Source: an uncultured Clostridia bacterium
GTDB lineage: Bacteria; Bacillota; Clostridia; TANB77; CAG-508
Assembly (NCBI GenBank): GCA_934169775.1
Contig: CAKPOI010000001.1
Span: 16,558 to 80,557, forward strand
Direction of reading: 5' to 3'
DNA: 64,000 nucleotides
Every line of letters starts with the position of its first letter. The stretch's first letter is position 1. A program made the position numbers and the translations under genes. Below are positions 1,390-51,831 of this stretch, one piece after another. Under the pieces are notes generated by a model. It searched no databases and had not been told where the DNA came from. It saw only the letters and a program-made list of their open reading frames with translations.

Positions 1390-1404
1390 TTTTTTCTTCC
1401 TTTC

Positions 1405-1468
1405 TGATGTTTTTGGGGACGGACTCAAAAAACACTAGTGTTTTTTTGCTCCGTCCCTAAAAACACTA
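1405..1468. repeat. Two inverted copies of the GC-rich intergenic repeat (TTTTGGGGACGGACTCAAAAAACACT / AGTGTTTTTTTGCTCCGTCCCTAAAAACACT) forming an imperfect palindrome.
   Basis: A GC-rich island in AT-rich DNA. Members of the same family occur at 7589, 24677, 42484, 42754, 47526 and 59851. Confidence 0.7.
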
Positions 1469-2859: not shown

Positions 2860-3849
2860 TTATATTATTTTTAATCCAATCATACACACAATTAAAGTTG
2901 TTATACTAAATATTATTACAACTTTATTTTCTTTCCATCCTGATAATTCAAAATGGTGGTGTAATGGTGCCATCTTGAATATTCTTTTTCCTGTTTTCTT
3001 AAAGTATAACACTTGCATTATTACAGATAATGTTTCTATTACTGGTACTAATGCTATTACTAACAATATTAATGGCATTTTTAAATATAGTGCTATTCCT
3101 GATATAACACCTCCTAATAATAATGAACCTGTGTCTCCCATAAATACTTTTGCTGGGTGTAGGTTAAACATTAAAAATCCTAAAACTGAACCTATTACTA
3201 TACTTCCAAATACAGATACTTCTGTTACTCCTCTTAACATTCCTATTACTGTTAAACATGTTATTATTATTGTTGATACACTAGATGATAATCCATCTAT
3301 TCCATCTGTTAAGTTTATTGCATTTGTTGTTGCTAGTATTACACATATTGCTGCTGGTACATATATATATAATGGCAATGTTATATATTGTTTTAATATT
3401 GGTATATATGTGTCTGTTCCTAGTTTTAATCCTTCTATTAGATATAATACATATGCTACTGATATTACTAGTAATCCTAGCATTTTATAACTTGGTTTTA
3501 GTCCTTCTGTGTTTTTTAGTACTAATTTTTTGTAGTCATCTATGAATCCTATTGCTCCAAATCCTATTGTTAGCAACAAAATTGGTATTAGCTTTGCTGA
3601 TAATTCTCCTTCTCCAGTTGCAACTAAATATACTGATGTTGCTACTGTTCCTATTATCATTGTGATTATTATTACTATTCCTCCCATTGTAGGAGTTCCT
3701 TGTTTTTTTAGATGTGATGCTGGACCATCATCTCTTTCTATTTGACCTACTTTTAATTTTCTTAATATTGGTATTGTTATGATTCCTAATATGATTGATA
3801 TTGCAAATGACACTAGCAATACTTCTATTTCAAAACTCACTTTTATCAA
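2860..3849 (-). CDS. mraY: MraY, phospho-N-acetylmuramoyl-pentapeptide transferase.
   Basis: GT4 MraY motifs (NAxNLTDGxDGL, DTGS). dcw context. Confidence 0.9.
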   Translation of the reverse strand: MIKVSFEIEVLLVSFAISIILGIITIPILRKLKVGQIERDDGPASHLKKQGTPTMGGIVIIITMIIGTVATSVYLVATGEGELSAKLIPILLLTIGFGAIGFIDDYKKLVLKNTEGLKPSYKMLGLLVISVAYVLYLIEGLKLGTDTYIPILKQYITLPLYIYVPAAICVILATTNAINLTDGIDGLSSSVSTIIITCLTVIGMLRGVTEVSVFGSIVIGSVLGFLMFNLHPAKVFMGDTGSLLLGGVISGIALYLKMPLILLVIALVPVIETLSVIMQVLYFKKTGKRIFKMAPLHHHFELSGWKENKVVIIFSITTLIVCMIGLKII

Positions 3850-3926: not shown

Positions 3927-5411
3927 CTATTTTTTATTTTTTTCTAGTTTTTCAATAATTTCGTTTACTATTATTCTTTCGTCAAATGGATATTTTACTC
4001 CATTTATTTCTTGATATGGCTCATGTCCTTTTCCTGCTAATATTATTATGTCTTTTTTGTTTGCCATTTTTATTGCTTTTTCTATTGCTTCTGTTCTGTC
4101 TACTATTACTTCATATTTTCCTTTTGTCTTTTTTATTCCTTCTTCTATTTGATTTACTATTTTTTGTGGTTCTTCTGTTCTTGGATTGTCTGATGTTATT
4201 ATTGTGTAGTCTGCTATTTTTCCAGATATTTCACCCATTATTGGTCTTTTTCCGCTGTCTCTGTCTCCTCCACATCCAAATACTGAGATTACTCTTCCTC
4301 TTGTGTAACTTTTTGCTGCTTGTAATATATTTTGTAAGCTTTCTGGTGAGTGTGCATAGTCTATCATTATTGTTAGCTCTTCTTTGTTGTTTACTAATTC
4401 TGATCTTCCTGGTACTCTTACTTCTAATAATGCTTCTTTTATTATTTCTGGTGATATTCCAAATTTTTGTGCTACACATATTGCTGCTAATGAATTATAT
4501 ACACTAAATCTTCCTGGTATTCCTGTTTTTACTCTTTCATTTCTGTCTGTTATTTTTACTTTGAAGTCTACATATGCATTTGTTATTGTTATGTCTTTTG
4601 CTAATACATTTGCAAAGTTGTCTATTCCATATGTTGTTATATTGCTTTCTGGAAATAGCTTTGGTATTTTTGCTCCATGTAAGTCATCTACATTTACTAT
4701 TCCTGTTTTACACATGTGGAATAATTTTAGTTTTGATTGGAAATAGTCTTCCATGTTTGGATGTTCGTTTGGACTGATGTGGTCTTCTGAAAAGTTTGTG
4801 AATAATACTATATCAAATTTGCATCCGTCTACTCTATGTAATTTTAAGCTTTGTGAAGATACTTCCATTACTACAACTTCTACTCCTTCTTCTACCATTT
4901 GACTGAATAGTTGTTGTAATTCTAAGCTTTCTGGTGTTGTTCTGTCACTGTCTTTTATTTTCTTTCCATTTATATATGTTGCTATTGTTCCTATTAATCC
5001 TACTTTTTTGCCTGCTTTTTCTAGGATTTCTTTTATCATATATGTTGTTGTTGTTTTTCCTTTTGTTCCTGTTACTCCTATTAGTTTTAGCTTTGCTGAT
5101 GGATTTCCGTAAAAGTTTGATGCACTTATTGCTAATCCTTCTCTTGTGTTTGGTGCCATTATTACTGTTATTTCTTCTGGTATTTTTATTCCTTTTATAT
5201 TGCACCCTTCTTCTATCATTATTGCTGTTGCTCCGTTTTCTATTGCGTTTTCAATAAATTGGTGCCCATCTACTGCAAATCCTTTTATTGCTATAAATAG
5301 ATATCCTTCTTTTACTTCTTTTGAGTTTTTTTCTATTCCTTTTATTTCTTTATTTAAGTCTCCTCTTACTTTTAACCCTTCTAGCCCTATTAATATTTTT
5401 TTTAATTCCAT
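3927..5411 (-). CDS. murE: MurE, UDP-MurNAc-L-Ala-D-Glu:meso-DAP ligase (DNPR motif present).
   Basis: Mur ligase fold (GVTGTKGKTTT P-loop) and a DNPR motif near the C-terminus. Confidence 0.85.
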   Translation of the reverse strand: MELKKILIGLEGLKVRGDLNKEIKGIEKNSKEVKEGYLFIAIKGFAVDGHQFIENAIENGATAIMIEEGCNIKGIKIPEEITVIMAPNTREGLAISASNFYGNPSAKLKLIGVTGTKGKTTTTYMIKEILEKAGKKVGLIGTIATYINGKKIKDSDRTTPESLELQQLFSQMVEEGVEVVVMEVSSQSLKLHRVDGCKFDIVLFTNFSEDHISPNEHPNMEDYFQSKLKLFHMCKTGIVNVDDLHGAKIPKLFPESNITTYGIDNFANVLAKDITITNAYVDFKVKITDRNERVKTGIPGRFSVYNSLAAICVAQKFGISPEIIKEALLEVRVPGRSELVNNKEELTIMIDYAHSPESLQNILQAAKSYTRGRVISVFGCGGDRDSGKRPIMGEISGKIADYTIITSDNPRTEEPQKIVNQIEEGIKKTKGKYEVIVDRTEAIEKAIKMANKKDIIILAGKGHEPYQEINGVKYPFDERIIVNEIIEKLEKNKK

Positions 5412-5530
5412 TTAGAATCATCCCTTCGTTTTATTATGTTTTGCTGATAAAGTCTTATCTGCAATTTTTAGTATATTATATATCTATTTTTCTTTTTTGT
5501 ATAGAGTTTTTTTTATTTTTTTGCTATTAT

Positions 5531-5578
5531 GGGAAAAAATATAACTGTATAAATTATATTGCTAAAATTTATACAGTT
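5531..5578 (-). terminator. Rho-independent terminator downstream of the 5586..6815 gene.
   Basis: 13-bp stem AACTGTATAAATT/AATTTATACAGTT followed by a T-run on the minus strand. Confidence 0.45.
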
Positions 5579-5585
5579 TATTTTT

Positions 5586-6815
5586 TTATTTATAAAATGT
5601 ACTTCTGAAGCTAACATTGTTGTAGTTGTGTTTCGTATCATAATTTGAGCGACTAGCGGCTGAAAAACTAGAACCTGTATCATAATAACTGCCTCCTCTA
5701 ATAACACAGCTCTTATCATTGCTAGAATTAGCATATTCTAACGTCCATTCCCATTCATTTCCTGCTAAATCATATATATTCATTTTATTGGTTTCTTCTG
5801 ATGCTCCTGCTGATAATATAATATTACTTGCAGCTTTTGTTCCTGTTATTACTTCCCAAGTTTTGCCAGTATCTGTTGAATGTTTTGCATTTACACTTGA
5901 TATTGTCCTTGTTGTATTACTATAATTTCCCCAACTTGTACTATTGGAATTTATTTCGCCTATTGTTCCTCCACTTTTTATTTCTAAGAATTTGCATACT
6001 ATATCCCATTGAATTCCAAACATTAAACTACTTGTATAATCATTACTTGGTTTCATCTCTTTTGCTAATGCTTGTGCTTCACTACATAATAACCAGTTAT
6101 ATGGTATTGCATCTTTTTGACTTATTGCTTTTGGTGATATTCCAATTACTACATTTGAATGTGATGTTCTAGTTTTTGATGTATCTGTTGTACTTCCTTC
6201 TATTCCTGCTTCATATCTTGCAACCCAAAATCCTCCATAATTATATACACTTTTTAACATTTTTTGATATGCTTCTGTATATTCTTCTGAAGTCATTCCA
6301 CAGCCTTCGTACCATTCATCTTGCCAATTTAATCCTTGACCTGCTTTTCCTTCTCTATACGTTGTTGCATATGCTATTAATTTTTCTTTTATTGCTATAT
6401 AAATTTCAGTTGACATATTATTTGTATCAATTGTAAGTCCTGAAAACACTGTTGTTTTTGGTACTTCTACCCATACCCATTCATTATTATTTTTGTCTTT
6501 TATTACTATTCCTTTATTTGCATCTGATTCTATTACTGTTGAACCAGAAGGCATTGCTCCTGCTGGGTTTGTATTTGATAAATTTATATTATTAAAATTT
6601 GTTGCATTATTTAAAGCGTCTTCCATGTTTGACAATGTTTGTTCTTCTTCTTTTTGTGCTTGGCTAGTCTTTTCTTTTGCTTCTTTTGCTCTTGTTAATA
6701 TTCCATTGTCTCCACTTAAAGCCGCTATTGTCACTCCTGCTAGTATTAGAAGTACGATAGTTGTTATTACTAATGCTATTAATGTTATACCTTTATTTCT
6801 TATTTTGCTTTCCAT
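5586..6815 (-). CDS. Pilin-like N-terminal anchor plus FGE-sulfatase/C-type-lectin-fold domain protein. Paralog of the DGR target at 57048..58361; its C-terminal VR-like region has diverged from the TR.
   Basis: N-terminus KGITLIALVITTIVLLILAGVTIAALSG. C-terminal FGE/SUMF1-type motifs (GFWVARYEAG, AGNEWEWT, RGGSYY). About 75% identity to the 57048..58361 protein. Confidence 0.7.
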   Translation of the reverse strand: MESKIRNKGITLIALVITTIVLLILAGVTIAALSGDNGILTRAKEAKEKTSQAQKEEEQTLSNMEDALNNATNFNNINLSNTNPAGAMPSGSTVIESDANKGIVIKDKNNNEWVWVEVPKTTVFSGLTIDTNNMSTEIYIAIKEKLIAYATTYREGKAGQGLNWQDEWYEGCGMTSEEYTEAYQKMLKSVYNYGGFWVARYEAGIEGSTTDTSKTRTSHSNVVIGISPKAISQKDAIPYNWLLCSEAQALAKEMKPSNDYTSSLMFGIQWDIVCKFLEIKSGGTIGEINSNSTSWGNYSNTTRTISSVNAKHSTDTGKTWEVITGTKAASNIILSAGASEETNKMNIYDLAGNEWEWTLEYANSSNDKSCVIRGGSYYDTGSSFSAASRSNYDTKHNYNNVSFRSTFYK

Positions 6816-7173
6816 CTAAAACTCCATTCCTTTCTCACTTCACTCAATTGCTATATAGTTAATTTTTTTAAATTATTTTGCTTTTTAGTGAAGATATTAA
6901 ATTTTTTTCTTAAGTTTTTATATAAATCTTAAAGTCTTACTATTATATAGTATTTACATTTTTTTATTACTTTATACTTTATACATCGTTCCCCTCCTAT
7001 TCATTTTTATTCTTTTGTATTTTAAATACGAGTTTTGTCAATTTGTATTTTATCAAAAACTTTTTTTAGTGTAAATAGTTTTTTGTAAAAATATCATTTA
7101 TAAATTGTTTTTTATCGTTTATAAAATCATTCTAAAAATTTGCTTAAAAGTTTATATTATATTTATATATTAA

Positions 7174-7521
7174 TTGAAAGTAGGTAATTATATGAAAAAC
7201 ATTGAAATGAACGAACACATAGGAAAAGTTTGTCAAAAATATAGATTAAAAAATAAATTAACTCAAAATGAAGTTGCTGAATTAACTGGCCTAGAGCCTA
7301 GACATATTAGTCAAATTGAAAGAGGCATGTCAAAAGGGAGCATTGATACTTTAATTAAATTGTGTAATGCATATCAAATAACTCCTGATATAATTTTGTT
7401 TGATTTATTAGATAATAATATAAAAAACTCTATCTCTATATATGATGAGAAATTTAAAAAATTGAGTAAGCGTGACAAAGATTCTATTTTACATTTTATT
7501 GATTATTTTTTGTCTAAATAA
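7174..7521 (+). CDS. XRE-family helix-turn-helix transcriptional regulator.
   Basis: LTQNEVAELTGLEPRHISQIERG HTH motif. Confidence 0.75.
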   Translation: MKVGNYMKNIEMNEHIGKVCQKYRLKNKLTQNEVAELTGLEPRHISQIERGMSKGSIDTLIKLCNAYQITPDIILFDLLDNNIKNSISIYDEKFKKLSKRDKDSILHFIDYFLSK

Positions 7522-7541
7522 TTTTTTATTTTATGTTTTAT

Positions 7542-7580
7542 AACTAATGATTTTTCCCGTTTCGAATCATTAGTTTTTTT
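7542..7580 (+). terminator. Rho-independent terminator after the XRE gene.
   Basis: AACTAATGATT...AATCATTAGTT stem followed by T7. Confidence 0.55.
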
Positions 7581-7588
7581 GAATTTTT

Positions 7589-7660
7589 AGTGTTTTTTGA
7601 GTCCGGCCCCAAAAGCATTAGTGTTTTTTTGAGTCCGGCCCCAAAAGCACTAAAAACACT
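7589..7660. repeat. Two tandem copies of the GC-rich repeat (AGTGTTTTTTGAGTCCGGCCCCAAAAGCA) ending in an inverted AAAAACACT.
   Basis: Seen directly. Same family as the 1405, 24677, 42484, 42754, 47526 and 59851 copies. Confidence 0.7.
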
Positions 7661-7936
7661 TTAGATTTTTTTTAAATCTTCTCCGTATTTTATTCCTAAT
7701 GAATAACTAAATGCAAAATAATATTCTTCTGTTTTATAAAATAGTTTTATTATTTCATTAAATTTTTCTTTTTGTTCCCCTTCTAATGAATTGTCTAATT
7801 CTTCTATTAACTTTGATAAATTCATATAATACTTACTAAATTCTTTATTGTTCCCTAAAATATATGACTTGCTTTCTATAAAGTCACTTATATATTTATA
7901 ATCTTTATTTTCAAAAATTTTCATTTCAACTCTCAT
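7661..7936 (-). CDS. Hypothetical small protein (91 aa), convergent with the XRE gene.
   Basis: ORF only. No recognisable motif. Confidence 0.35.
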   Translation of the reverse strand: MRVEMKIFENKDYKYISDFIESKSYILGNNKEFSKYYMNLSKLIEELDNSLEGEQKEKFNEIIKLFYKTEEYYFAFSYSLGIKYGEDLKKI

Positions 7937-8155
7937 TCCCTTCTTTTTGATATTTTAATATAATAATGAATTTTTATTATTTCATACTTATTTTTCTTTT
8001 TTTATTTTGTCCATTTTATTTTTTATAATTCTTTTTATTTTGTTTATTTTATTTTTGTAAAAGATAATTTTTATATTTTTAAAATTTGATACAAAAATAG
8101 CTGTTTTATTAATTCCCAGCTATTTTCTATCGAATATATATACCTCGTTTTCTTT

Positions 8156-10264
8156 CTAATATTTCACAAAAACTTTATTTCCTTTATTTATCTTAATTCT
8201 TTCTGTTGGTGTCTGCTCTTTAATTATTATATTTTCTATATCTAGCCCCTCTTTATTTTCTTCTGTAATTCCCTCAATACTTATTTCTAATCCTACTTCT
8301 TTTAATATTTTCTTTGCTTCTTTTATTGATAATCCTGTTATATTTGGTACACTTACTTCCTCTATTTCTTCAGTTTCATTTCCCTGTACAACTTCTAAAT
8401 ATGGTAATATTTCGCTAAATATCTGACCTCCAACTGGAGCTGCAACTCCCCCTCCTTGGTGTCCTCCTTCTCCTGTTGGATTATATAAAGTAATTAGTAA
8501 AACAACTTGTGGGTCTTCTATTGGTGCTACTCCTAAAAAAGATGTAACATATTTGTTAGTGTTTACACCATCTTCAGAAGTTCCTGTTTTTCCACCAATT
8601 CTATAGCCTGCAACTTTAGCATTTTTTCCTGTTCCTTCAGAAACAACTGATTCCATCATACTTAAAACTTTTTCTGATGTTTCTTTAGAAATTGATTGTG
8701 ATTTTATTTTGACCTCTACATCTCTTTTTTCTCCTGTTTTACTGTCTATTATTTGTTTTACAACTCTAGGTTGAATTAAATTTCCTCCATTTGCAATGCT
8801 TGAAACTGCTGTAACTAATTGAATAGGAGTAATTTCAAACCTTTGGCCAAAACTTATTGTAGCTAATTCTACAGGTCCTGCTTTTTCTTCTTTTAAAAAT
8901 ATGCTTCCTCCTTCTCCTGGTAAGTCTATTCCTGTTTTTTCTAATAATCCGAATTTTTGTAAATAGCTATAATATGTATGAACTCCTAATTTTTGTCCAA
9001 GCCCTATAAATACTGGGTTACATGAGTTCATAAGTCCTTGTCTTAAGCTCTCTGAGCCATGTGGTCTATAATATCTCCAACATTTTATTCTTACTCCAGC
9101 TACTTCTATTCCTCCTGTACAGCAAAATTGTCCTTGTTTATCTATATCTGTAACTAGCCCTTCTTCTATAGATGCTGAGGCTGTTATTGTTTTAAATGTT
9201 GAGCCAGGTTCATATGTGTCTGCAATTGCTCTATTTCTCCAGACTGCTTGTAATTGTTTGGTCTTTTCTCCTTGTTCTAAATTTGGCCATATGCCTTGTA
9301 ATTCTTCTGTATATGCTGAATATGGATCATTTAAATTATATGTTGGATATGTTGCCATTGCCAAAATATCTCCTGTTTTTGGATTCATTGCTACTATGTT
9401 TCCACCATCTGTACACTTATTGTCAATACATGCTTCTTTTAAATATTTTTCTACTATTGATTGAATATTATAATCTATTGATAATACTAAATCATTTCCA
9501 TCTATTGCTGCAATATATTTTTCTCCTTCTTCGCCTATTTCTGCACCTTTAGCATCTGTATGCCTTTTAATCGCTCCTTTGGTTCCTGCTAGTTCTTTTT
9601 CGTATTTTGCTTCTATTCCATCAAGCCCTTGATTGTCACTACCACAAAATCCTATTATTTGTGCAGCTAAGCTGTTATTAGGATAATATCTTTTTGTGTC
9701 TTCATCTATATTTATTCCTGTGGTTATGTTGTTTTGTTCCATCCATTCTCTTAATTGGTCTGTTTTTTCTTTATCTACTTTTTTTACAATTGTTTCTATT
9801 GAACTTCTTTTTGTTACTTTTTTTAATATTTTTTCGTAGTCTAATTCAAATAATTCTGATAATTTTTTGGCTACTAATTCTTTTTTGTCTTTTTCTATAT
9901 TTCCCGGATTTACTGTTACTGTTTCTACTGTACTACTTATTGCTAATATATATTTTCCTGTACTATCATATATTGTTCCTCTTTTTGGATTTATTGCTCT
10001 GTCTAATGTTTGCTGTTCATATGCCATTGATGATAATTCTCCTCCTTGTATTATTTGTATAAATCCTATTCTTCCTATTAAAATTGTAAAAACTAAAAAT
10101 GATGTAAATAATATATTTCTCATTCTTTTTTTGGTAGATATTTCACTTGTTATTGTTTTATTTTTTATTCTTTTTTTTGTTGGTATTTCTCTTGTTTTTT
10201 TGTTTTTTCTTTTTTTGGTAGATACTCTTAATTTTTTGTCTTCTTTTCTTTTATATGTATTCAT
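8156..10264 (-). CDS. Class B penicillin-binding protein (FtsI/PBP2B-like transpeptidase) with a C-terminal PASTA domain.
   Basis: Dimerisation and transpeptidase motifs (STFK, SSN-like, KTGT) plus a PASTA-like C-terminus. Located between ftsL and murE. Has a K-rich N-terminal extension. Confidence 0.85.
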   Translation of the reverse strand: MNTYKRKEDKKLRVSTKKRKNKKTREIPTKKRIKNKTITSEISTKKRMRNILFTSFLVFTILIGRIGFIQIIQGGELSSMAYEQQTLDRAINPKRGTIYDSTGKYILAISSTVETVTVNPGNIEKDKKELVAKKLSELFELDYEKILKKVTKRSSIETIVKKVDKEKTDQLREWMEQNNITTGINIDEDTKRYYPNNSLAAQIIGFCGSDNQGLDGIEAKYEKELAGTKGAIKRHTDAKGAEIGEEGEKYIAAIDGNDLVLSIDYNIQSIVEKYLKEACIDNKCTDGGNIVAMNPKTGDILAMATYPTYNLNDPYSAYTEELQGIWPNLEQGEKTKQLQAVWRNRAIADTYEPGSTFKTITASASIEEGLVTDIDKQGQFCCTGGIEVAGVRIKCWRYYRPHGSESLRQGLMNSCNPVFIGLGQKLGVHTYYSYLQKFGLLEKTGIDLPGEGGSIFLKEEKAGPVELATISFGQRFEITPIQLVTAVSSIANGGNLIQPRVVKQIIDSKTGEKRDVEVKIKSQSISKETSEKVLSMMESVVSEGTGKNAKVAGYRIGGKTGTSEDGVNTNKYVTSFLGVAPIEDPQVVLLITLYNPTGEGGHQGGGVAAPVGGQIFSEILPYLEVVQGNETEEIEEVSVPNITGLSIKEAKKILKEVGLEISIEGITEENKEGLDIENIIIKEQTPTERIKINKGNKVFVKY

Positions 10265-33902: not shown

Positions 33903-34367
33903 GTGATTAAAATGGATATGGATTCAAATAAACCTCATTGCCCTATTTTAGATGTTGATGGCGTTATATCAGGAGGTAAACAATTTGATTTAGATATAAT
34001 TTTACAAGAAGATAATCGTGATGTTATATATGGTGTTGTTAAAAATTGTTTTAAAGAACCTGTTTCTAATGCCGTTGTAAAATTAGTTGAAGTTGTATAT
34101 GACTGTGGTAAAGAAGATAGAAGACCTATTGGCCATACTTTTACAGATAAAGATGGTGAATTTGTTTTTGGACCTCTTTGCCCTGGTAGAAAATATGCTA
34201 TTCAAATTTGGGCTAATGATACTAAAAAAATCAAGATTTGTGCAAAATGTTTCCATGAAGGAAAATGTTTAAAAGGTGAAAAACACGATAAATGTGATTG
34301 TTTTTTAAATGATGATAAACATGAAAAATGTGATAAAGACGAAAGATGTTGTGAAGATAAACAATAA
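33903..34367 (+). CDS. Hypothetical small protein with a carboxypeptidase-regulatory/transthyretin-like beta-sandwich motif and a Cys/His/Lys-rich tail.
   Basis: VVKLVEV...TFTDKDGEFVFGPLCPGRKYAIQI, followed by CxKC...KCDC...KCDKDERCC. Confidence 0.3.
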   Translation: MIKMDMDSNKPHCPILDVDGVISGGKQFDLDIILQEDNRDVIYGVVKNCFKEPVSNAVVKLVEVVYDCGKEDRRPIGHTFTDKDGEFVFGPLCPGRKYAIQIWANDTKKIKICAKCFHEGKCLKGEKHDKCDCFLNDDKHEKCDKDERCCEDKQ

Positions 34368-34380
34368 TAATTAATGATTT

Positions 34381-34583
34381 GAGGAGAGATACTTTGTACA
34401 TTGAGAAATATATTTTTTTGTGATTGAAGCAATATTAGAAATTCTTAAATAATTTAATGGAAAGAGTTCACGTCGAGCGAAGCGAGGACTAAGTGGAAGG
34501 GTGCCATTAAATTATTTTAAAATTTCTTAAATTGCGTAATGAACCTAAAAATATATTTCTCAATGTACAAAGTATCTCTCCTC
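34381..34583. repeat. 203-bp element with perfect 35-bp terminal inverted repeats (GAGGAGAGATACTTTGTACATTGAGAAATATATTT) and a GC-rich central core shared with the 42.6 kb element.
   Basis: Left end 34381-34415 is the exact reverse complement of 34549-34583. Core is GGAAAGAGTTCACGTCGAGCGAAGCGAGGACTAAGTGGAAGG. Confidence 0.6.
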
Positions 34584-34765
34584 ATTTTATAATATATATT
34601 GAATTACCAATTGCTTAAAGTTCTCATTACTTTTTTTCCTTTTTTCATTATTCTTTTCTTATTTTTGTTTAACATATCACTTTCTGAATACATCATTAGA
34701 ACTCCTGTTGCAAGTAGACCTCCTATTACTAATCCTTTAGCAAATTTCATATTATCACTCCTTTT

Positions 34766-39386: not shown

Positions 39387-41768
39387 ATGTTATGTTCAAA
39401 ATGTAATAAAAATCCTGCCATCTTATTTTTTGAAAAAAATGATGGAAAAGGTAAAAATAAAAAATTAGAAGGATTATGTTATAATTGTGCTAAAAAACAA
39501 GGTATTGATCCTTTAGAAACTTTATATAGACAAAATGATGTTTTGGCTCATGACCCTGTAAGTATGGAAGAAATGAGAAAACAATTTGAAAATATCTTTA
39601 AAGATTTTGCTGAAAATATTTCTTTGGATGATATTAATAAAATTGATGGTGCTTTTACTTTTGGTACAGATGATTTAGATGATGGCGACTTGGATGATGA
39701 GGATAAACCTCATATTGCAGGTGCTGCAATTCCTTTGGGTAGTATTTTTTCTAGTCTTCTTAATGGAGATGATGAAAATTCTGGTTCTCAAGAAGAATTT
39801 GCTTCTCAAAGTAATTCTAGAAAAAAAATAAAAGTTGAAAAAAAGAAAAAACAAAATAAAAAGAAAAAATATCTTGATACTTATGGTACTAACTTGACAA
39901 ATAAAGCTAAAAATGGCGAACTTGATATTGTTATAGGTAGAGATAAAGAAATCCAAAGAATTGTTCAAATTCTAAATAGACGTTCTAAAAACAATCCTTG
40001 TTTAATTGGTGAACCTGGTGTTGGTAAAACAGCTATTGCTCAAGGTTTGGCTATTAAAATTGCTAATCAAAATGTACCTGCTAAATTATTAAATAAAGAA
40101 GTTTATTTGTTAGATATGACTTCTGTTATTGCTGGTACACAGTTTAGAGGTCAATTTGAATCTCGTATGAAAGGTATTATTGATGAATGTAAACAATATG
40201 GAAACATTATTTTAGTAATAGATGAAATTCATAATATAATTGGTGCAGGAGATGGTGAACATTCTATGAATGCTGCAAATATTTTAAAGCCAGCTCTTTC
40301 TAATGGAGAGATTCAATTAATTGGGACTACTACTTTAAAAGAATATCGTAAATATATTGAAAAAGATTCTGCTTTGGAGCGTCGTTTCCAACAAGTTTTA
40401 ATTGAGGAACCTAATACTGATGATTCTATTAAGATTTTGGAAGGTATTAAAAAATATTATGAGGAATATCATAAAGTTAAGATTTCTAATGATGTTATTA
40501 AACAGGCTGTTATTATGTCTGAAAAATATATCCATGATAGATTTTTGCCAGATAAGGCTATTGATATTTTAGATGAAGCATGTTCTCGTATTAATTTGGA
40601 AAATAAAGATTTATATAAATTGGAGATGCTTAAAAAGGAATTAGCTGATGTTCAAGCCGAAAAAGAGGAAGTTGTTGCTGCTGATTCTACAGAAGATTAT
40701 CAAAAAGCTGCCGATTTAAAAACTCGTGAATGTCAATTAATTGAGAAAATTGATAGTTTGAATAAAAAAATGAAATTGAAAAATTTGACTGTTCAAGATA
40801 TTGCTACAGTTATTGAAAGTTGGACAAAAATTCCTGTAAAAAAAATAACTGAGGAAGAAACTCAAAAATTGTTAAATTTGGAAACAAATTTGCATAAAAG
40901 AGTTATTGGTCAAGATCAAGCAGTTAGTGTTGTTTCTAGAGCTATTCGTAGAAATCGTGCTGGATTGCAAAGTACTAAAAGACCACCTTCTTTTATATTT
41001 GTTGGACCTACTGGTGTTGGTAAAACAGAATTGGCTAAAAGTCTTGCTTTTGAGATGTTTGGAAAAGAAGATTCTATGATTAGAATTGATATGTCTGAAT
41101 ATATGGAAAGTCATTCTACAGCTAAATTGATTGGTGCTCCTCCAGGATATGTTGGTTATGATGATGCTGGTCAATTAACTGAAAAAGTTAAGAGAAAACC
41201 TTATTCTATTATTCTTTTAGATGAAATTGAAAAAGCTCATCCAGATGTTTTTAATATTTTGTTACAAGTTTTAGATGATGGTAAATTAACAGATAGTCAA
41301 GGTAATACTGTAAGTTTTGCAAATACTGTTATTATAATGACTTCAAATGCTGGTTCTAATTTAAATACAAATTCTATTGGCTTTGGAAAACAAACTGTTG
41401 ATAAAGGAAAAATTGAAGATACTTTAAAAACTACTTTCCGCCCTGAATTTTTAAATAGAATTGATGAGATTGTTGTTTTTGACTCTTTAACAGAAAAAGA
41501 ATTGATTCAAATTGTTGACTTGATGTTAAAAGATACTCAAAAAGCTTTAAAAGAAAAAGATATGGATTTAGTGGTATCTGATAAAGCTAAACATTTTATT
41601 TTAGAAAAAGGTACAAATATCAAGTTTGGTGCAAGACCTTTAAGAAGGGCTATTCAACGTTATGTAGAAGATGAAATTTCTGAAAAGATTTTAAGAGGAG
41701 ATTTTTCAAATGGTCAAACAATTAGTGTCGATTTTGTAGATGATAATTTGACTTTTGAAGCAAAATAA
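39387..41768 (+). CDS. clpE: ClpE-type ATP-dependent Clp protease ATP-binding subunit (N-terminal zinc ribbon plus two AAA+ modules).
   Basis: N-terminal CSKC...CYNC. D1 region GEPGVGKT. UVR-like middle region. D2 region GPTGVGKTELAK. Confidence 0.8.
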   Translation: MLCSKCNKNPAILFFEKNDGKGKNKKLEGLCYNCAKKQGIDPLETLYRQNDVLAHDPVSMEEMRKQFENIFKDFAENISLDDINKIDGAFTFGTDDLDDGDLDDEDKPHIAGAAIPLGSIFSSLLNGDDENSGSQEEFASQSNSRKKIKVEKKKKQNKKKKYLDTYGTNLTNKAKNGELDIVIGRDKEIQRIVQILNRRSKNNPCLIGEPGVGKTAIAQGLAIKIANQNVPAKLLNKEVYLLDMTSVIAGTQFRGQFESRMKGIIDECKQYGNIILVIDEIHNIIGAGDGEHSMNAANILKPALSNGEIQLIGTTTLKEYRKYIEKDSALERRFQQVLIEEPNTDDSIKILEGIKKYYEEYHKVKISNDVIKQAVIMSEKYIHDRFLPDKAIDILDEACSRINLENKDLYKLEMLKKELADVQAEKEEVVAADSTEDYQKAADLKTRECQLIEKIDSLNKKMKLKNLTVQDIATVIESWTKIPVKKITEEETQKLLNLETNLHKRVIGQDQAVSVVSRAIRRNRAGLQSTKRPPSFIFVGPTGVGKTELAKSLAFEMFGKEDSMIRIDMSEYMESHSTAKLIGAPPGYVGYDDAGQLTEKVKRKPYSIILLDEIEKAHPDVFNILLQVLDDGKLTDSQGNTVSFANTVIIMTSNAGSNLNTNSIGFGKQTVDKGKIEDTLKTTFRPEFLNRIDEIVVFDSLTEKELIQIVDLMLKDTQKALKEKDMDLVVSDKAKHFILEKGTNIKFGARPLRRAIQRYVEDEISEKILRGDFSNGQTISVDFVDDNLTFEAK

Positions 41769-41874
41769 GTTATAAATACTGCAGATTGAAAATTTATACA
41801 TTTTTAATTATATTAAAACTGTTTTCTTTTCAATCTGTTTTAATATAATTTATTGTGAAAGGATGTAATTAAAC

Positions 41875-42480
41875 ATGCAAAAAAATATACAAAAAAATAT
41901 ACCAAATATTCTAACTATTTTTAGATTTATTCTTATACCTATTATTTTATATTTTATTTTTACTAGACATTATTTATTAGGTTTTATATTTTTTACCATC
42001 TCTGGTATTACTGATATTTTAGATGGTGCAATTGCAAGAAAATTTAATCTTGTTACTAATTTTGGAAAATTGATGGATCCATTGGCTGATAAGCTTACTC
42101 AGGTTTCTGTTTTGGCTACTCTTGTTTTTCAAAAGATTATTCCTTTTTGGATTCTTGTAGTTGTTCTTCTTAAGGAACTTTTGATGATTATTGGTGCTTC
42201 TTTCCTTTATGGTAAAGATGTTGTTGTTTATAGCAAATGGTTTGGTAAACTTGCTACTGTTCTTTTCTACCTTGCTATTGTTTGCTCTTTGATTAATAAA
42301 GAATTTGCTCTTACTGGTGTTTGGCAAAATTTAGATTTTATTCTTTATTGTATTGCCGTTATTGCTACTGTCTTTTCTTTTATTATGTATGTTAAATACT
42401 TATATAAAGATGGCTTTATTGATAAAAGTGATTTGAAAAAAGAGAAGCAACCTGTTATTATCAATAAAAAGAATAAGTAG
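41875..42480 (+). CDS. pgsA: CDP-diacylglycerol--glycerol-3-phosphate 3-phosphatidyltransferase (CDP-alcohol phosphatidyltransferase family).
   Basis: DGxxAR...G...D...D motif (DILDGAIARKFN...GKLMDPLADK). Confidence 0.75.
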   Translation: MQKNIQKNIPNILTIFRFILIPIILYFIFTRHYLLGFIFFTISGITDILDGAIARKFNLVTNFGKLMDPLADKLTQVSVLATLVFQKIIPFWILVVVLLKELLMIIGASFLYGKDVVVYSKWFGKLATVLFYLAIVCSLINKEFALTGVWQNLDFILYCIAVIATVFSFIMYVKYLYKDGFIDKSDLKKEKQPVIINKKNK

Positions 42481-42483
42481 CTG

Positions 42484-42784
42484 ATGTTTTTGGGGACGGA
42501 CTCAAAAAACATCACTATTACATATCATTAAAAATAATAAATGTTATATGGTTTAATAATTTTCTCGGTTCAATACACAAACTAAAAATTTCTAAAATAA
42601 AATAATGTAATCCTTCAGCTTAGTCCTCACTTCGTTCGACGTGAAGCTCTTCCATCATTTTATTTAAGAAATTCTAAGATTGTTCCAATCACATTCGAAA
42701 ATTATTCTTCCATATAACATTTATTATTTTTTATATAATTTGAAAAGATATATGGTGTTTTTTGAGTCCGTCCCCAAAAACATC
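42484..42784. mobile_element. MITE-like non-autonomous element. Two inverted copies of the GC-rich repeat (about 30 bp, GATGTTTTTGGGGACGGACTCAAAAAACATC / its reverse complement) flank 240 bp with no ORF that carries the GC-rich core shared with 34381..34583.
   Basis: Inverted termini at 42484-42513 and 42754-42784. The internal CTTAGTCCTCACTTCGTTCGACGTGAAGCTCTT is about 90% identical to the reverse complement of 34454-34486. Confidence 0.5.
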
Positions 42785-43395
42785 TATTCATAATCTTCTA
42801 TTATTTGACTTAAATTTTCTTTACCATATACTTTTAGTCCATTTTTTATTTCAATTTTATCTGTATCTGTTAAATATTCTGTAGAAATGTCAGTCTTTTG
42901 ATATTCCTTTTCTTGCCCATTTTCATCTAATAAATTTACAACTATCTTTCCATCTACATCTCTTAAAATATAATGTTCCCCACATTCGCCATCAGCTTTT
43001 TTTTGCAATACTACATTATTGGACTCAAATTCTTTTACTGTCCATTCTGGATATAGTTCATTTATTTCTCTTTCGTTTTTATTAACTAAATCATTTGTCA
43101 CATTTTTATACTGTTTGGTAACATGTCCACATTTTTCATATTTAATTTCATATATTATACTGCAATTAGGCGATATTCTTACATTTTCTTGACTATTTGC
43201 TTGTATGTCTTTTTGATTTGATGTTTCTATTTCTTTCCATTCTTCTGTACAATCATCTTCTATTGTTTCAGCTAAATCTGTTGTTTTTATTGGCTCTGTT
43301 TCATTATTTTTTTGCATTTCATATATTTTGTTTCCAGCATATATGGCAAATATTATAATTCCTAGGCTTAGTAATATTATAATAATTTTTTTCAT
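42784..43395 (-). CDS. Hypothetical secreted or membrane-anchored protein.
   Basis: N-terminal signal/TM segment MKKIIIILLSLGIIIFAIYA. No known motif. Confidence 0.4.
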   Translation of the reverse strand: MKKIIIILLSLGIIIFAIYAGNKIYEMQKNNETEPIKTTDLAETIEDDCTEEWKEIETSNQKDIQANSQENVRISPNCSIIYEIKYEKCGHVTKQYKNVTNDLVNKNEREINELYPEWTVKEFESNNVVLQKKADGECGEHYILRDVDGKIVVNLLDENGQEKEYQKTDISTEYLTDTDKIEIKNGLKVYGKENLSQIIEDYE

Positions 43396-43420
43396 TTTGA
43401 CTCCATCCTTTCTTATTTTA

Positions 43421-45865: not shown

Positions 45866-45908
45866 TAAAAGTTGCCTCCTTTAATTATATAATTTTTTCT
45901 TGATAATT

Positions 45909-47315
45909 TTATTTTATAATTCTTCTTCCTCCAGAAAATCTGCTTGCTGCTTGGCTTAATGGTACAATACTTACTGTTTTTCCTGGTCTTGGTGAATGTA
46001 TTACATTTCCTCCACCTACATATATTGCAACATGCCCTGAATATATTACTAAATCTCCTGCTTGTAGATTTGCTTTCGTTACAGCTGTTCCTACTCCTGA
46101 TTGACCTCCAGATGTACGTGGTAATGATATTCCAAAGTGTTTGTATACATATGATGTAAATCCTGAACAGTCAAATCCTGTTTTTGGAGATGTTCCCCCA
46201 TATGTGTATTTTGTTCCTATAAATTGTTTTGCATATGCTACTACATTTGCTCCTGTTGTAGTACTTGTTGTAGTCGATTGTTGTGTTGTGCTTGTTGTTT
46301 CTTGTTTTTGTGTGCTTTGTGTTTGCGTGCTTTGTGAATTTTCTGTTGTTGTTTTTGCAGCTGCTGCTATTCTTGATTCACTTGCTCCTCTGGATGTTTC
46401 TTGTTTTGTTGTTGATAGTAATGTTGATAATATATATCCTTCTTTTCCATTTGATTTTACTTTACTCCATCCATTTTCTTCTGATACAACTTCAACTTTT
46501 GTGTTTATTGCTAATTGTACTACTATTGATGATGTTCTATTTGCACTACTTCTTAAATTTACTGTTTCTGTATTTATATACATTGTTTTTGAAGTTTGTT
46601 TTGCTGTTTCTTGTTGTGTAGTTTGTTTATTATTTGTATTATTATTTTCTTGGTTTTCTGTTTTTTGATTTTCTTCTTTTTGAGTACTTTCAGTCTTTTG
46701 TTCTACTTTTTCTAGTTTTTCTAATTTTTCAAATATTACCCATCCTTGTTTTTCTTGTACATTTACATATGCCCAATTATTCATTTTGTCTTGGATTTCT
46801 ACTTCTGTGTCTTTTTTTATTTCTTCTATTTCTAATGCATTTATTAATGGTATTACTTTTAATTTTATATCTTCTTTTGCTTTATATTTTTCTATTGTTT
46901 CGACTGTTGTAGTTTCTATATTTGCTGCTGTTTCTACACTTTCTTCTGTTTTGCTATCTTCTACAACTGTATTTGCTTTTTCTGTGTTATTGTTTGTTGT
47001 TTCTTCTTTTTCTGTTTTTGTTGTTTCATTGTTTAATTGTACTAAATCATTTCTTAAATATCCTGTTATATTTTTGTACTTAACTTTATACCATTCTCCT
47101 TTTGTTTCTAAAACTTCTACGCTTTCTCCTTTGTTTACTAAGTCTAATATTTTAGAGTCTGAGTCTGCTGTTTCCCTAAGGTTTGCTGTGTCTACCGTTA
47201 CTTTTGCAGTGTTTGCTGCTAGACTGGTATTAATAAAAAATAAGCTAATTGTTGTTACTATTATTGCTGCTATCCCTAGTGTTAGCACATTTTTTATATT
47301 AAGTTTTATTTTCAT
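45909..47315 (-). CDS. Secreted NlpC/P60 (C40) cell-wall peptidase with SH3b domains and a Thr/Ser/Gln-rich linker.
   Basis: C-terminal FDCSGFTSYVY...GH (Cys-His) motif. N-terminal SH3-like repeats. Signal peptide present. Confidence 0.8.
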   Translation of the reverse strand: MKIKLNIKNVLTLGIAAIIVTTISLFFINTSLAANTAKVTVDTANLRETADSDSKILDLVNKGESVEVLETKGEWYKVKYKNITGYLRNDLVQLNNETTKTEKEETTNNNTEKANTVVEDSKTEESVETAANIETTTVETIEKYKAKEDIKLKVIPLINALEIEEIKKDTEVEIQDKMNNWAYVNVQEKQGWVIFEKLEKLEKVEQKTESTQKEENQKTENQENNNTNNKQTTQQETAKQTSKTMYINTETVNLRSSANRTSSIVVQLAINTKVEVVSEENGWSKVKSNGKEGYILSTLLSTTKQETSRGASESRIAAAAKTTTENSQSTQTQSTQKQETTSTTQQSTTTSTTTGANVVAYAKQFIGTKYTYGGTSPKTGFDCSGFTSYVYKHFGISLPRTSGGQSGVGTAVTKANLQAGDLVIYSGHVAIYVGGGNVIHSPRPGKTVSIVPLSQAASRFSGGRRIIK

Positions 47316-47525
47316 TTTCTTTCTCCTTATTTTATTATATTCATTTTTTGAAAGTACTTTTCTTAATATATCATATTTTTCTTATTTTGTCAAATTTTTA
47401 CTGAAGTCAAATGTAGAATCGTTTAATGTGAATTGAAAAAATGTAGTAAATTTTCATTCATTTTACTACATTTTTCGATCTTTATTTTTTGTTATTGATT
47501 AACATACTAATATTAATCTTAATAT

Positions 47526-47585
47526 GGTGCTTTTTGAGTCCGGCCCCAAAAGCATTAATCTTATAAGTCCGGTCCCTAAAGCATC
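47526..47585. repeat. Two tandem GC-rich repeat copies (GAGTCCGGCCCCAAAAGCATTA / AAGTCCGGTCCCTAAAGCATC).
   Basis: Seen directly. Intergenic, between the NlpC/P60 gene and ppaC. Confidence 0.65.
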
Positions 47586-47587
47586 TC

Positions 47588-48523: not shown

Positions 48524-48536
48524 TACTCCTTCTTTT

Positions 48537-49418: not shown

Positions 49419-49595
49419 ATTTAATGTCTCCTTTCTCTAGATTTTTTCTGCTTTTTAATATAGCATATTATAATTATTTTGTCAAAATTAGTTTGCATAA
49501 TTTATATCATTGCATGCTAAATATTTTTTTATTTCTTGACTATATTTTTTGATTATTGTATAATTTGAGATAGAAATGGTAAATGTTTTTTAATT

Positions 49596-50522: not shown

Positions 50523-50563
50523 AAAAATGACATGATTATGTTTATTTTAATCATGTCATTTTT

Positions 50564-51808: not shown

Positions 51809-51831
51809 ATTAATACCCCCATATCCTATAT

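What the first reader, a model, noticed from the sequence alone, without database searches (positions are those of the whole stretch)
7589..7660. Dispersed family of GC-rich REP/MITE-like intergenic repeats (about 11 copies in 64 kb)
The roughly 25-30 bp core TTTTTGAGTCCG(G/T)CCCCAAAAGCA (and its reverse complement TTTTGGGGACGGACTCAAAAA) recurs at 1407-1467 (inverted pair), 7589-7659 (tandem pair), 24677-24708, 42484-42513, 42754-42784, 47526-47585 (tandem pair) and 59851-59905 (nested palindrome). It always lies in intergenic space, often right after stop codons or between convergent genes, and stands out as GC islands in AT-rich DNA. It may act as terminators/insulators, recombination hotspots, or MITE termini, as seen at 42484-42784.
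Basis: seen in the sequence. Interest (0 to 1): 0.6.

Follow-up and report, generated by a model that had tools for sequence, protein, structure and literature searches.

The report
REP-like hairpin repeats tied to transposase
The GC-rich islands are copies of a short DNA hairpin that related gut Clostridia carry on both sides of a REP-type (RAYT) tyrosine transposase gene, so this is a new Clostridial example of a known kind of small bacterial repeat, not a new kind of element.

Summary
The window holds 9 complete units and 3 partial cores of one repeat, at the stated places, against 0 expected by chance.

Each unit is a hairpin with an AT-rich stem of about 10 bp and a 13-nt loop, GGGGACGG(AGCAA/ACTCA) on one strand. 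In about 145 copies from about 90 low-GC uncultured Clostridia contigs the loop is nearly invariant. The stem differs between genomes but stays complementary.

Single units sit with the G-rich strand in gene sense, a median of 8.5 nt after a stop codon. All 37 inverted doublets have the polarity [G-rich arm][C-rich arm].

In related genomes the same hairpins, in that polarity, flank a 250-aa HUH-Y1 gene. It passes the NCBIfam cutoff for "REP-associated tyrosine transposase", and its best fold match is 4ER8, TnpA-REP. In three pairs of related contigs a doublet or unit lies where the other contig has this gene.

The core resembles the GGGGWSAS motif of TIRYT/TIRtron repeats. The unit lacks the canonical GTAG foot and GC-rich stem of REPs.

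Verdict: a REP/REPIN-like family of the TIRYT (TnpA-Y1 subclass 2.1) type, and a new member of a known kind. Mobility and any RNA-level effect are inferred. No transposase gene lies in the window.

The parts
1404..1437 (-). Full unit. Here 'strand' is the strand on which the unit reads TTTTTGAGTCCGTCCCCAAAA; the G-rich strand GGGGACGGACTC is on +. It is the left arm of an abutting inverted doublet and lies 2 nt upstream of the murG ribosome-binding site.
   Evidence: (44.6 bits)
1436..1468 (+). Full unit with core CCGTCCCT. It is the right arm of the doublet 1404-1468. The doublet folds as one long hairpin (-20.4 kcal/mol as DNA, z -7.9).
   Evidence: (51 bits)
7588..7620 (+). Full unit of the CCGGCCCC subtype, first of a tandem pair. 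On the - strand its G-rich form follows the stop of gene 7661-7936.
   Evidence: (41.3 bits)
7618..7653 (+). Full unit of the CCGGCCCC subtype, second of the tandem pair. Its stem foot lies 8 nt from the stop codon at 7661-7663.
24676..24708 (+). Full single unit. Its stem arm contains the TAA stop (24706-24708) of the 2440-aa gene on the - strand. Units sit at the orthologous site in L010 and L055 and are absent in L081.
   Evidence: (46.5 bits)
42483..42514 (-). Full unit, the left arm of a doublet whose spacer holds a 238-bp insertion. It directly follows the TAG stop of the CDP-alcohol phosphatidyltransferase gene (41875-42480, + strand).
   Evidence: I16; 52.8 bits
42753..42784 (+). Full unit, the right arm of the same doublet. 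It abuts the TAG stop of gene 42784-43395 on the - strand.
   Evidence: I16; 50.6 bits
47525..47557 (+). Full unit of the CCGGCCCC subtype.
   Evidence: 43.5 bits
47558..47585 (+). Degenerate second copy (AAGTCCGGTCCCTAAAGCATC), next to the stop of the DHH-family gene 47588-48523 on the - strand.
59848..59910 (+). Nested palindrome. The central unit is 59865-59893 (GATGATTT / AAATCATC stem, loop TTGCTCCGTCCCC). Its stem is extended by an outer G-rich core (59848-59864) that pairs with an outer C-rich core (59894-59910). It folds at -24.8 kcal/mol as DNA (z -9.0). It lies just after the gatB stop on the - strand, and L065 has a doublet at the orthologous site.

Best explanation
The repeats are non-autonomous REP/REPIN-like elements. 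Each is a short hairpin that presents a conserved GGGGACGG motif in its loop. This hairpin is the cognate DNA substrate of a single-copy, chromosomally resident HUH-Y1 tyrosine transposase of the RAYT family, of the TIRYT / TnpA-Y1 subclass 2.1 type. SHOWN HERE: (1) the hairpin anatomy and the stem covariation; (2) the fixed polarity of doublets; (3) the same hairpins flanking the RAYT gene in the same polarity in related genomes, with stems that match the dispersed copies of that genome; (4) presence/absence differences between related genomes; (5) doublets lying where relatives carry the RAYT gene; (6) whole units replaced at a fixed site between close relatives. INFERRED, by analogy with IS608/ISDra2 TnpA and E. 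coli TnpA-REP: the enzyme binds the folded hairpin on single-stranded DNA, most likely the G-rich strand, which for co-oriented genes is the lagging-strand template. It then cuts and rejoins there, which spreads, replaces and deletes units. Doublets would be the two ends of the transposase locus without the gene. Copies survive mainly just 3' of stop codons. Either the stem itself supplies stop codons (TGATGA, TAATG, TAG), so that insertions at the very end of a gene are tolerated, or a hairpin there is neutral or useful in the mRNA. Any effect on mRNA 3' ends or on translation termination is secondary and untested.
For: REPEAT ANATOMY
- The core is far above chance.
- In 138 distinct units, 86% of stem cells pair, against 71% in shuffles. 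There are 192 double-sided changes against 60, and the covariation score is 0.39 against 0.13 (0 of 500 shuffles reach it; slid controls are at most 0.18).
- The canonical form is a stem of about 10 bp with a 13-nt loop GGGGACGGAGCAA or GGGGACGGACTCA.
- 37 of 37 inverted doublets are [G-rich][C-rich].

TRANSPOSASE LINK
- L050:6482-7252 encodes a 257-aa protein that matches Pfam Y1_Tnp at 1e-14. It scores 83.4 bits against NCBIfam NF047646, 'REP-associated tyrosine transposase', whose cutoff is 80.
- A unit lies upstream of it in G-rich orientation. Another overlaps its stop codon in C-rich orientation. Both have the same CTGTT/AACAG stems as two further units on that contig.
- Homologs in L031 and L100 are arranged in the same way.
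- Of 57 metagenome loci that encode homologs, 28 have GGGRAC within 300 nt upstream and 36 have GTYCCC downstream. Background windows give 4% and 2%. These are inverted hairpins with variable stems and loops that begin GGGGAC. Model R1 hits flank the closest homologs.
- The only PDB sequence hit is 4ER8, TnpA-REP. An AlphaFold model (pLDDT 86) also matches 4ER8 best, then the IS608 and ISDra2 TnpA structures.
- The gene sits in a conserved PRK-RNHCP-RAYT-peptidase U32 neighbourhood.

TURNOVER
- L070 has an empty site where L046 and L039 have a doublet.
- Doublets in L096 and L099, and a unit in L012, lie where L031, L161 and L050 have the RAYT gene.
- One site with flanks about 93% identical carries entirely different stems and a different 3' half of the loop in different genomes.

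LITERATURE
- RAYT-like TIRYT genes are flanked by inverted repeats that share GGGGWSAS. Some are self-complementary and form moderately abundant families with dimers (PMC3733652).
- TIRYT corresponds to subclass 2.1, which is Bertels' Group 1 and is also found in Clostridia (PMC6006769, PMC5581495).
Against: - No RAYT gene lies in the window, so the link for this genome rests on relatives.
- Transposition was not observed. The presence/absence cases involve genomes whose flanks are only 80-94% identical, so element boundaries are fuzzy and no target motif is seen.
- The canonical REP hallmarks, a 5' GTAG/GTGG foot and GC-rich stems, are absent.
- The strong preference for the first few nucleotides after stop codons, with the G-rich strand in sense, is not predicted by transposition alone and could reflect a host function.
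- G.T versus A.C mismatch counts do not settle which strand folds.
Confidence: 0.8

Rival explanations
1. The unit is a host cis-acting RNA element of 3' untranslated regions. In this view a hairpin whose conserved G-rich loop binds a host factor acts right after stop codons, in mRNA stabilisation, processing or control of translation termination. The transposase association would be incidental or secondary.
For: Single units are oriented 32 to 4 with the G-rich strand in gene sense and lie a median of 8.5 nt after the stop, against 114 nt before the next start. Stop codons are often inside the stem. The stems covary while the loop stays invariant. Units occur at orthologous sites after the same genes in different genera: ftsW-murG, gatB and the 2440-aa gene. 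From my own knowledge, E. coli REPs close to stop codons have been reported to affect translation and mRNA decay.
Against: The same hairpins flank a RAYT gene in inverted orientation. Half of all copies are in doublets that place both strands in one transcript. Stems are uniform within a genome and differ between genomes. Units are replaced wholesale at a site whose flanks are about 93% identical, and are present or absent between relatives. There is no Rfam family. The two readings do not exclude each other.
Confidence: 0.12
2. The units are intrinsic (Rho-independent) transcription terminators or insulators of a clade-specific type.
For: They are hairpins downstream of genes, sometimes between convergent genes. 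The flanks are T-rich, as is the whole genome.
Against: The loop is 13 nt, the stems are AT-rich with fewer than 3 G-C pairs, and there is no consistent T tract. None is called in the terminator scan, while canonical terminators do exist in the window. Single units fold weakly, at -2 to -8 kcal/mol as DNA. Copies sit inside the dcw operon between ftsW and murG, directly before the murG ribosome-binding site.
Confidence: 0.04
3. The units are the ends of a conventional DDE-transposase MITE, with terminal inverted repeats and target-site duplications, and are unrelated to the Y1 gene.
For: Doublets are elements of about 80-150 bp with long inverted arms. One doublet encloses a 238-bp segment.
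Against: No target-site duplication is visible at the filled-versus-empty site. Many copies are single hairpins. The only transposase repeatedly flanked by them is the Y1 enzyme. The 238-bp insert is a separate element that also occurs without units.
Confidence: 0.03

Closest known systems
TIRtron / TIRYT-associated repeats (Di Nocera et al. 2013, PMC3733652), corresponding to TnpA-Y1 subclass 2.1 (Quentin et al. 2018, PMC6006769) and RAYT Group 1 (Bertels et al. 2017, PMC5581495)
   Same: A RAYT-like HUH-Y1 gene is flanked by inverted repeats with a GGGG-led motif. The published consensus is GGGGWSAS. This family has GGGGACGG, and the flanks of homologs have GGGGACAC. The G-rich form lies upstream of the gene. 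The repeats are partly self-complementary and are dispersed as singles, dimers and clusters. The protein is about 250 aa with a C-terminal extension beyond the catalytic core. Group 1 has been reported in Clostridia.
   Different: Here the motif sits in the loop of a well-defined, covarying hairpin. Quentin et al. state that neither automatic nor manual searches found REP-like structures near subclass 2.1 genes. In the window the density is REP-like, at 12 cores in 64 kb. The hosts are low-GC uncultured gut Clostridia. The C-terminal domain gave no Pfam HTH hit, so assignment to the subclass is by resemblance and not by phylogeny.
Canonical REP / BIME / REPIN with RAYT (E. coli, Pseudomonas; PMC2817692, PMC3116915, PDB 4ER8)
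   Same: These are short extragenic palindromes, mostly downstream of genes. Inverted doublets fold into long hairpins. The cognate single-copy Y1 transposase is flanked by the repeats in inverted orientation. Inheritance appears vertical, within a conserved neighbourhood. The best sequence and fold match of the protein is TnpA-REP.
   Different: There is no GTAG/GTGG tetranucleotide at the hairpin foot. The stems are AT-rich, not GC-rich. The conserved part is the 13-nt loop, not the stem. The loop is conserved across many genomes, whereas canonical REPs are species-specific.
IS200/IS605 (IS608, ISDra2) subterminal hairpins
   Same: A DNA hairpin is recognised by a HUH-Y1 enzyme, and the strand bias fits action on the lagging-strand template. 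The second-best fold matches are to these transposases.
   Different: The ends of those elements are hairpins on the same strand and are not inverted. The transposase travels with its element and is multicopy. There is no genome-wide population of miniature copies.
Neisseria Correia elements (NEMIS) and other bacterial MITEs (RUP, ERIC, BOX)
   Same: These are small palindromic intergenic elements that are co-transcribed with neighbouring genes. Some doublet spacers here contain -10-like boxes.
   Different: Those elements have DDE-type terminal repeats and target duplications, and none has a Y1 partner. No duplication is seen here.

Membership tests
TIRYT/TIRtron-associated repeats (TnpA-Y1 subclass 2.1) | The partner gene is a RAYT-like HUH-Y1 transposase, with an HuH motif and the class 2 signature Y---NP | tested here: met
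   Pfam Y1_Tnp at 1e-14. NCBIfam REP_Tyr_transpos at 83.4 bits, cutoff 80. H63, H65 and Y124-I-H-x-N128-P129 are invariant in 38 homologs. The best fold match is 4ER8. Tested in related genomes only, because no such gene lies in the window.
TIRYT/TIRtron-associated repeats (TnpA-Y1 subclass 2.1) | The gene is flanked by inverted repeats that share GGGGWSAS, with the G-rich form upstream | tested here: met
   L050, L100 and L117 have the G-rich unit upstream and the C-rich unit downstream. The core GGGGACGG matches 7 of 8 positions, and the flanks of homologs have GGGGACAC, 8 of 8. The motifs are enriched to 49% and 63% of loci, against 4% and 2% in background windows.
TIRYT/TIRtron-associated repeats (TnpA-Y1 subclass 2.1) | A C-terminal HTH-like extension (Bac_DnaA_C, HTH_23 or HTH_28-like) | tested here: inconclusive
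   All 120 listed homologs are about 216-291 aa, mostly 245-260 aa, and the model has a confident helical domain at 189-256. No Pfam HTH family hits at E <= 0.01, and the domain was not compared on its own.
TIRYT/TIRtron-associated repeats (TnpA-Y1 subclass 2.1) | Phylogenetic placement inside subclass 2.1 / Group 1 | not tested
   The reference sequences of those papers were not available to the tools.
Canonical REP/REPIN-RAYT | A GTAG or GTGG tetranucleotide 0-2 nt 5' of the hairpin foot | tested here: not met
   The 10-nt flanks of 147 units show no conserved tetranucleotide.
Canonical REP/REPIN-RAYT | A GC-rich basal stem and a small loop (2-5 nt) | tested here: not met
   The stems are AT-rich (for example GATGATTTT/AAAATCATC), and the loop is 13 nt in 104 of 147 units.
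Canonical REP/REPIN-RAYT | Many dispersed extragenic copies, often as inverted doublets that fold into a long hairpin | tested here: met
   12 cores in 64 kb, all intergenic. 139 of 148 units across loci are intergenic. There are 37 doublets. Doublets fold at -20 to -25 kcal/mol.
Canonical REP/REPIN-RAYT | The transposase cuts and rejoins the repeat, and the repeats are mobile | not testable with these tools
   Only indirect evidence exists: presence/absence between relatives and replacement at fixed sites.
Intrinsic terminator | A GC-rich stem, a short loop and a 3' U tract | tested here: not met
   No unit is called in 41000-60500, a stretch that holds units at four sites (two full units at the 42483-42784 doublet, one full plus one degenerate copy at 47525-47585, and the nested palindrome at 59848-59910).
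Any Rfam family | A match at the gathering score | tested here: not met
   The only window hit is RT-14, elsewhere. Permissive scans of units give generic miRNA-precursor hairpin hits.
DDE-type MITE | Terminal inverted repeats with a target-site duplication | tested here: inconclusive
   No duplication is visible at L070 (empty) against L046 and L039 (filled), but the flanks are only about 86% identical.

The most novel reading that the evidence does not exclude
The hairpins may not be merely parasitic. The TIRYT-type enzyme would read a sequence presented in a hairpin loop (GGGGAC...), not a guide tetranucleotide at the foot, which would be a distinct recognition mode among Y1 transposases. 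The host would keep the system because it places a standard hairpin at the first nucleotides after stop codons of housekeeping genes. There the units would act as exchangeable 3'-end 'punctuation' that affects translation termination or mRNA decay. This would explain the invariant loop across genera, the strict sense orientation, and the re-occupation of the same sites by different subfamilies.
Probability: 0.2. Interest if true: 0.6.

Novelty: new member of a known kind. Interest (0 to 1): 0.4.

Why it matters
REP/RAYT systems are known almost entirely from Proteobacteria. For the largest RAYT group (Group 1, subclass 2.1, TIRYT) the published surveys disagree on whether cognate repeats exist at all.

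This family gives a clear, high-copy example in gut Clostridia that have no cultured representatives. The DNA substrate is well defined: a hairpin with GGGGACGG in the loop. The locus architecture links single units, doublets and the transposase gene. That makes the recognition rule of this transposase group testable with simple oligonucleotides.

For annotation, it explains the GC islands at gene ends in these MAGs. It also warns that the stop codons of many genes lie inside a mobile hairpin.

Tried and rejected
- Rfam at gathering thresholds and at permissive thresholds gave no family, only generic hairpin hits.
- No tRNA or tmRNA relation was found.
- G.U versus A.C counts, used to decide which strand folds or whether the fold is in RNA, were not decisive: 51 against 40 overall, and 19 against 3 in the inner variable pairs.
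- I looked for a conserved target or guide motif next to the hairpin foot and found none.
- I looked for a RAYT in the window and for the PRK/U32 neighbourhood that holds it in relatives. Both are absent.
- The comparison of window 38023 with L026 is not a clean empty site, because the left flanks are not syntenic.
- The terminator reading is rejected.
- Ideas from memory that I did not pursue for lack of support: a DNA uptake sequence, KOPS-like polarity signals, a CsrA site (GGA in the loop), an anti-Shine-Dalgarno mimic, and resemblance to 5S rRNA or the tmRNA 5' end. The transposase association explains the data better than any of them.
- A literature search for the core sequence returned only unrelated primers and small RNAs.
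- A strong IS200 hit in L053 is an ordinary IS200 far from the units and unrelated to them.

Full report
**1. Observation**

The window is AT-rich, about 27% GC, with most genes on the - strand. There are 7 matches to the 24-mer with up to 3 mismatches and 10 matches to the 12-nt core with up to 1 mismatch, against none in 100 shuffles.

A covariance model built later, and run over the whole window without filters, recovers only these sites. The window therefore holds 9 complete units and 3 partial cores. All of them are intergenic.

**2. Anatomy**

About 90 of these are low-GC (24-33%) contigs of uncultured Clostridia, Eubacteriales or 'Clostridium sp.' MAGs from human, chicken and ruminant guts. 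The remaining hits, in GC-rich genomes, are isolated matches.

Listing about 145 copies side by side shows a clear pattern:

- The central 20 nt, TTTTT(T)GCT/GAGT-CCGTCCCC-AAAA, is nearly invariant.
- The 5-8 nt on either side differ from genome to genome but remain complementary. Examples are GATGAT/ATCATC, GGGAT/ATCCC, GTGTT/AACAC, CTGTT/AACAG and TTAAAT/ATTTAA.

The copies were collected by the core alone, so the stem complementarity is not a selection artefact. On 138 distinct units a 10-bp helix scores as follows:

| Measure | Observed | Shuffled |
|---|---|---|
| Cells paired | 86% | 71% |
| Double-sided changes | 192 | 60 |
| Covariation score | 0.39 | 0.13 |

None of 500 shuffles reaches the observed values, and controls with the partner slid by 1-3 columns score at most 0.18. 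Read on the G-rich strand, the canonical unit is a stem of about 10 bp with a 13-nt loop, GGGGACGGAGCAA or GGGGACGGACTCA.

As single-stranded DNA, single units fold weakly, at -2 to -8 kcal/mol. Doublets fold at -20 to -25 kcal/mol with z-scores of -8 to -9. Mismatch types do not say clearly which strand folds: G.T 51 against A.C 40 overall, and 19 against 3 in the inner variable pairs.

**3. Arrangement and context**

Of 148 units, 139 are intergenic. Half of them are in inverted doublets. All 37 doublets have the same polarity, G-rich arm first and then C-rich arm, with none in the opposite arrangement.

Single units in spacers between co-directional genes have the G-rich strand in gene sense 32 times and the C-rich strand 4 times (p = 2e-6). 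They lie a median of 8.5 nt after the upstream stop codon, against 114 nt before the next start. Their position in the spacer departs from uniform at p = 6e-9.

In many copies the stop codon is part of the stem arm, as in gagTGAtgaTTTTGGGGACGG... and ggcTAAtgcTTTTGGGG.... In doublets the C-rich arm often ends a few nucleotides before the ribosome-binding site of the next gene. This holds in the window upstream of murG and at the same place in L021.

No unit resembles an intrinsic terminator, and Rfam has no matching family.

**4. The partner gene**

I searched all ORFs of the fetched loci with IS200 and IS608 TnpA sequences recalled from memory. Besides an ordinary IS200, this gave a weak hit to L050:6482-7252. 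Three results identify that 257-aa protein:

- It matches Pfam Y1_Tnp at 1e-14.
- It passes the curated cutoff of NCBIfam NF047646, 'REP-associated tyrosine transposase', at 83.4 bits against a cutoff of 80.
- Its only sequence relative in the PDB is 4ER8, TnpA-REP bound to a REP hairpin. An AlphaFold model (pLDDT 86) also matches 4ER8 best, followed by IS608 and ISDra2 TnpA.

The gene is flanked by a unit upstream in G-rich orientation and by a unit in C-rich orientation that overlaps its stop codon. Their CTGTT/AACAG stems match two further dispersed units on the same contig. Homologs in L031 and L100 show the same layout.

A metagenome scan with the three proteins found 519 relatives, of which 80 loci were fetched. 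Model R1 hits flank the closest ones. A search for inverted repeats shows that most of the others are flanked by hairpins with their own stems but with loops that begin GGGGAC, for example:

- CCTGTTTTTGGGGACACTTTAAAAAAACAGG
- GTGTCAATGGGGACGGTTCTTTTTGACAC
- GTGCCATTGGGGACGGAGAATTTTGGCAC

GGGRAC lies within 300 nt upstream in 28 of 57 loci, and GTYCCC lies downstream in 36 of 57. Background windows give 4% and 2%.

The protein family is large: 1199 proteins at E <= 1e-10. Most of the listed ones are 245-260 aa and carry only PF01797. One member sits in a conserved neighbourhood, PRK-RNHCP-RAYT-peptidase U32, in several samples. That is the behaviour of a resident single-copy gene, not of an insertion sequence.

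**5. Turnover**

I compared the flanks of unit clusters between loci.

- **Empty against filled site.** L070 has an uninterrupted site where L046 and L039 carry a doublet of about 140 nt. No target duplication is visible.
- **Doublet absent in relatives.** L032 and L089 lack the doublet that follows a gene in L031. In L032 the same gene is followed by an ordinary terminator-like hairpin.
- **Doublet where a relative has the gene.** In three pairs of related contigs, a doublet (L096, L099) or a unit (L012) lies where the relative (L031, L161, L050) carries the RAYT gene between its hairpins. This fits the polarity rule: a doublet looks like the two ends of the transposase locus without the gene.
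- **Whole-unit replacement.** At the site after the gene that ends ...YLGVE*, four contigs have flanks about 93% identical. Two carry a TGATGA-stem unit with loop GGAGCAA, and two carry a GGGAT-stem unit with loop GGACTCA. The unit was exchanged as a whole, not changed base by base.
- **The window against relatives.** Units occupy the orthologous sites ftsW-murG (L021), the gatB 3' end (L065) and the end of the 2440-aa gene (L010, L055). L081 lacks the last one.

**6. Interpretation**

The best-supported reading is a REP/REPIN-like population of hairpins that are the substrate of a RAYT-family Y1 transposase. The anatomy, the association with the gene and the turnover are shown here. The mechanism is inferred from the solved relatives: binding of a folded hairpin on single-stranded DNA, probably the G-rich strand on the lagging-strand template, followed by cleavage and rejoining.

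The clustering at stop codons may have two causes. First, insertions at the extreme 3' end of genes may be tolerated, because the stem arms carry stop codons. Second, the hairpin may have an RNA-level effect. The data cannot separate a bias that follows replication from one that follows transcription, because nearly all genes here are co-oriented.

The rival that the units are primarily a host RNA element keeps some probability (0.12) and does not exclude the main reading. The terminator and DDE-type MITE readings are poorly supported.

**7. Comparison with what is known**

Canonical REPs are defined by a GTAG/GTGG foot, GC-rich stems and small loops (PMC6006769, methods). Each of these features was tested here and is not met. 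I therefore do not file the family as a canonical REP, although it works like one.

The closest description is the TIRtron/TIRYT class of Di Nocera et al. (PMC3733652). These are RAYT-like genes flanked by inverted repeats that share GGGGWSAS. Some are self-complementary, and they form moderately abundant families with dimers and clusters. Quentin et al. (PMC6006769) equate TIRYT with TnpA-Y1 subclass 2.1, which has a C-terminal HTH-like extension and corresponds to Bertels' Group 1. Bertels et al. note that Group 1 occurs in Clostridia (PMC5581495). Quentin et al. also report that no REP-like secondary structures could be found near subclass 2.1 genes.

The present family matches on three counts: the motif (GGGGACGG, with GGGGACAC in relatives), its upstream G-rich orientation, and the protein length. 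It adds a clear hairpin with the motif in the loop, a REP-like copy density, and a Clostridial host range. Subclass placement by phylogeny and the nature of the C-terminal domain remain untested.

No paper in the searchable library contains the core sequence in this context.

**8. Verdict**

It is a new member of a known kind and of moderate interest (0.4). Its main value is a clean entry point to the recognition rule and biology of the least understood RAYT group, plus an annotation aid for gut Clostridia MAGs.

The most novel reading not excluded is loop-based recognition together with a host-maintained 'punctuation' role at stop codons. I give it a probability of about 0.2.

Noticed in passing
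window 55004-58358, and 5586-6812: A diversity-generating retroelement. It comprises a reverse transcriptase (55384-56166, -; Pfam RVT_1), a bAvd accessory gene (56141-56527, -), an Rfam RT-14 RNA (55004-55183, -; 79 bits), a template repeat at 55179-55318 and a variable repeat at 57058-57197 at the 3' end of the target gene 57048-58358. 17 of 18 template-to-variable mismatches fall at template adenines. A paralogous target gene (5586-6812, weak FGE-sulfatase/C-type-lectin-like hit) lies 50 kb away with a more diverged repeat at 5593-5732.
   Followed up: partly
window 42515-42752 and 34367-34597: A second repeat family, unrelated to the first. It is a long palindromic element of about 215-230 bp with a GC-rich centre (CTTAGTCCTCACTTCGTTCGACGTGAAG). 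One copy is inserted in the spacer of the unit doublet at 42483-42784, and the other lies between genes without any unit. It was not found in any fetched locus.
   Followed up: partly
window 5528-8391: Relative to the syntenic dcw cluster in L021, the window has an extra block of about 2.9 kb. It holds the remote DGR target gene, an HTH_3 regulator (7174-7521) and a DUF6809 gene (7661-7936), and ends with the tandem units of the finding. It may be an inserted accessory island.
   Followed up: no
L031:5330-5440, L050:6440-6480, L161 (about 3810-3830): A conserved motif, AAAAATAGGGG(C/T)AAAA, lies about 30-60 nt upstream of the RAYT start in three divergent loci. It may be a promoter or operator, or a further binding site for the enzyme.
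   Followed up: no
L046:5596-5737, L096:1587-1706, L094, L012; window 59848-59910 and 47558-47585: Many doublet arms carry a second, outer, degenerate copy of the core (for example TTGGGGGCGGG-TGATGAT... and GAAGACGGAGC-GATGAT...) just outside the hairpin. The inverted repeat therefore extends about 20 nt beyond the stem. This could mark the cleavage or guide region.
   Followed up: no
L077:1433-1475, L046:5640-5690, L067:2015-2060: Doublet spacers of the GATGAT subfamily share an asymmetric sequence of about 45 nt with extended -10-like boxes (TGATATAAT) facing the C-rich arm, so some doublets may carry an outward promoter.
   Followed up: no
window 7603, 7635, 47540: The window's genome has a subfamily with core CCGGCCCC (GGGGCCGG) in place of the CCGTCCCC that is almost universal elsewhere, always with GTGCT/AGCAY stems.
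   Followed up: no
L161:3830-3860 and 4780-4810: One RAYT homolog is flanked by hairpins with a different loop (GTGGCAAAAGGGCCAGCCTTTTTTACCAC). The orthologous site in L099 has a doublet with the canonical GGGGACGG loop. This suggests the loop motif can shift within the family.
   Followed up: no
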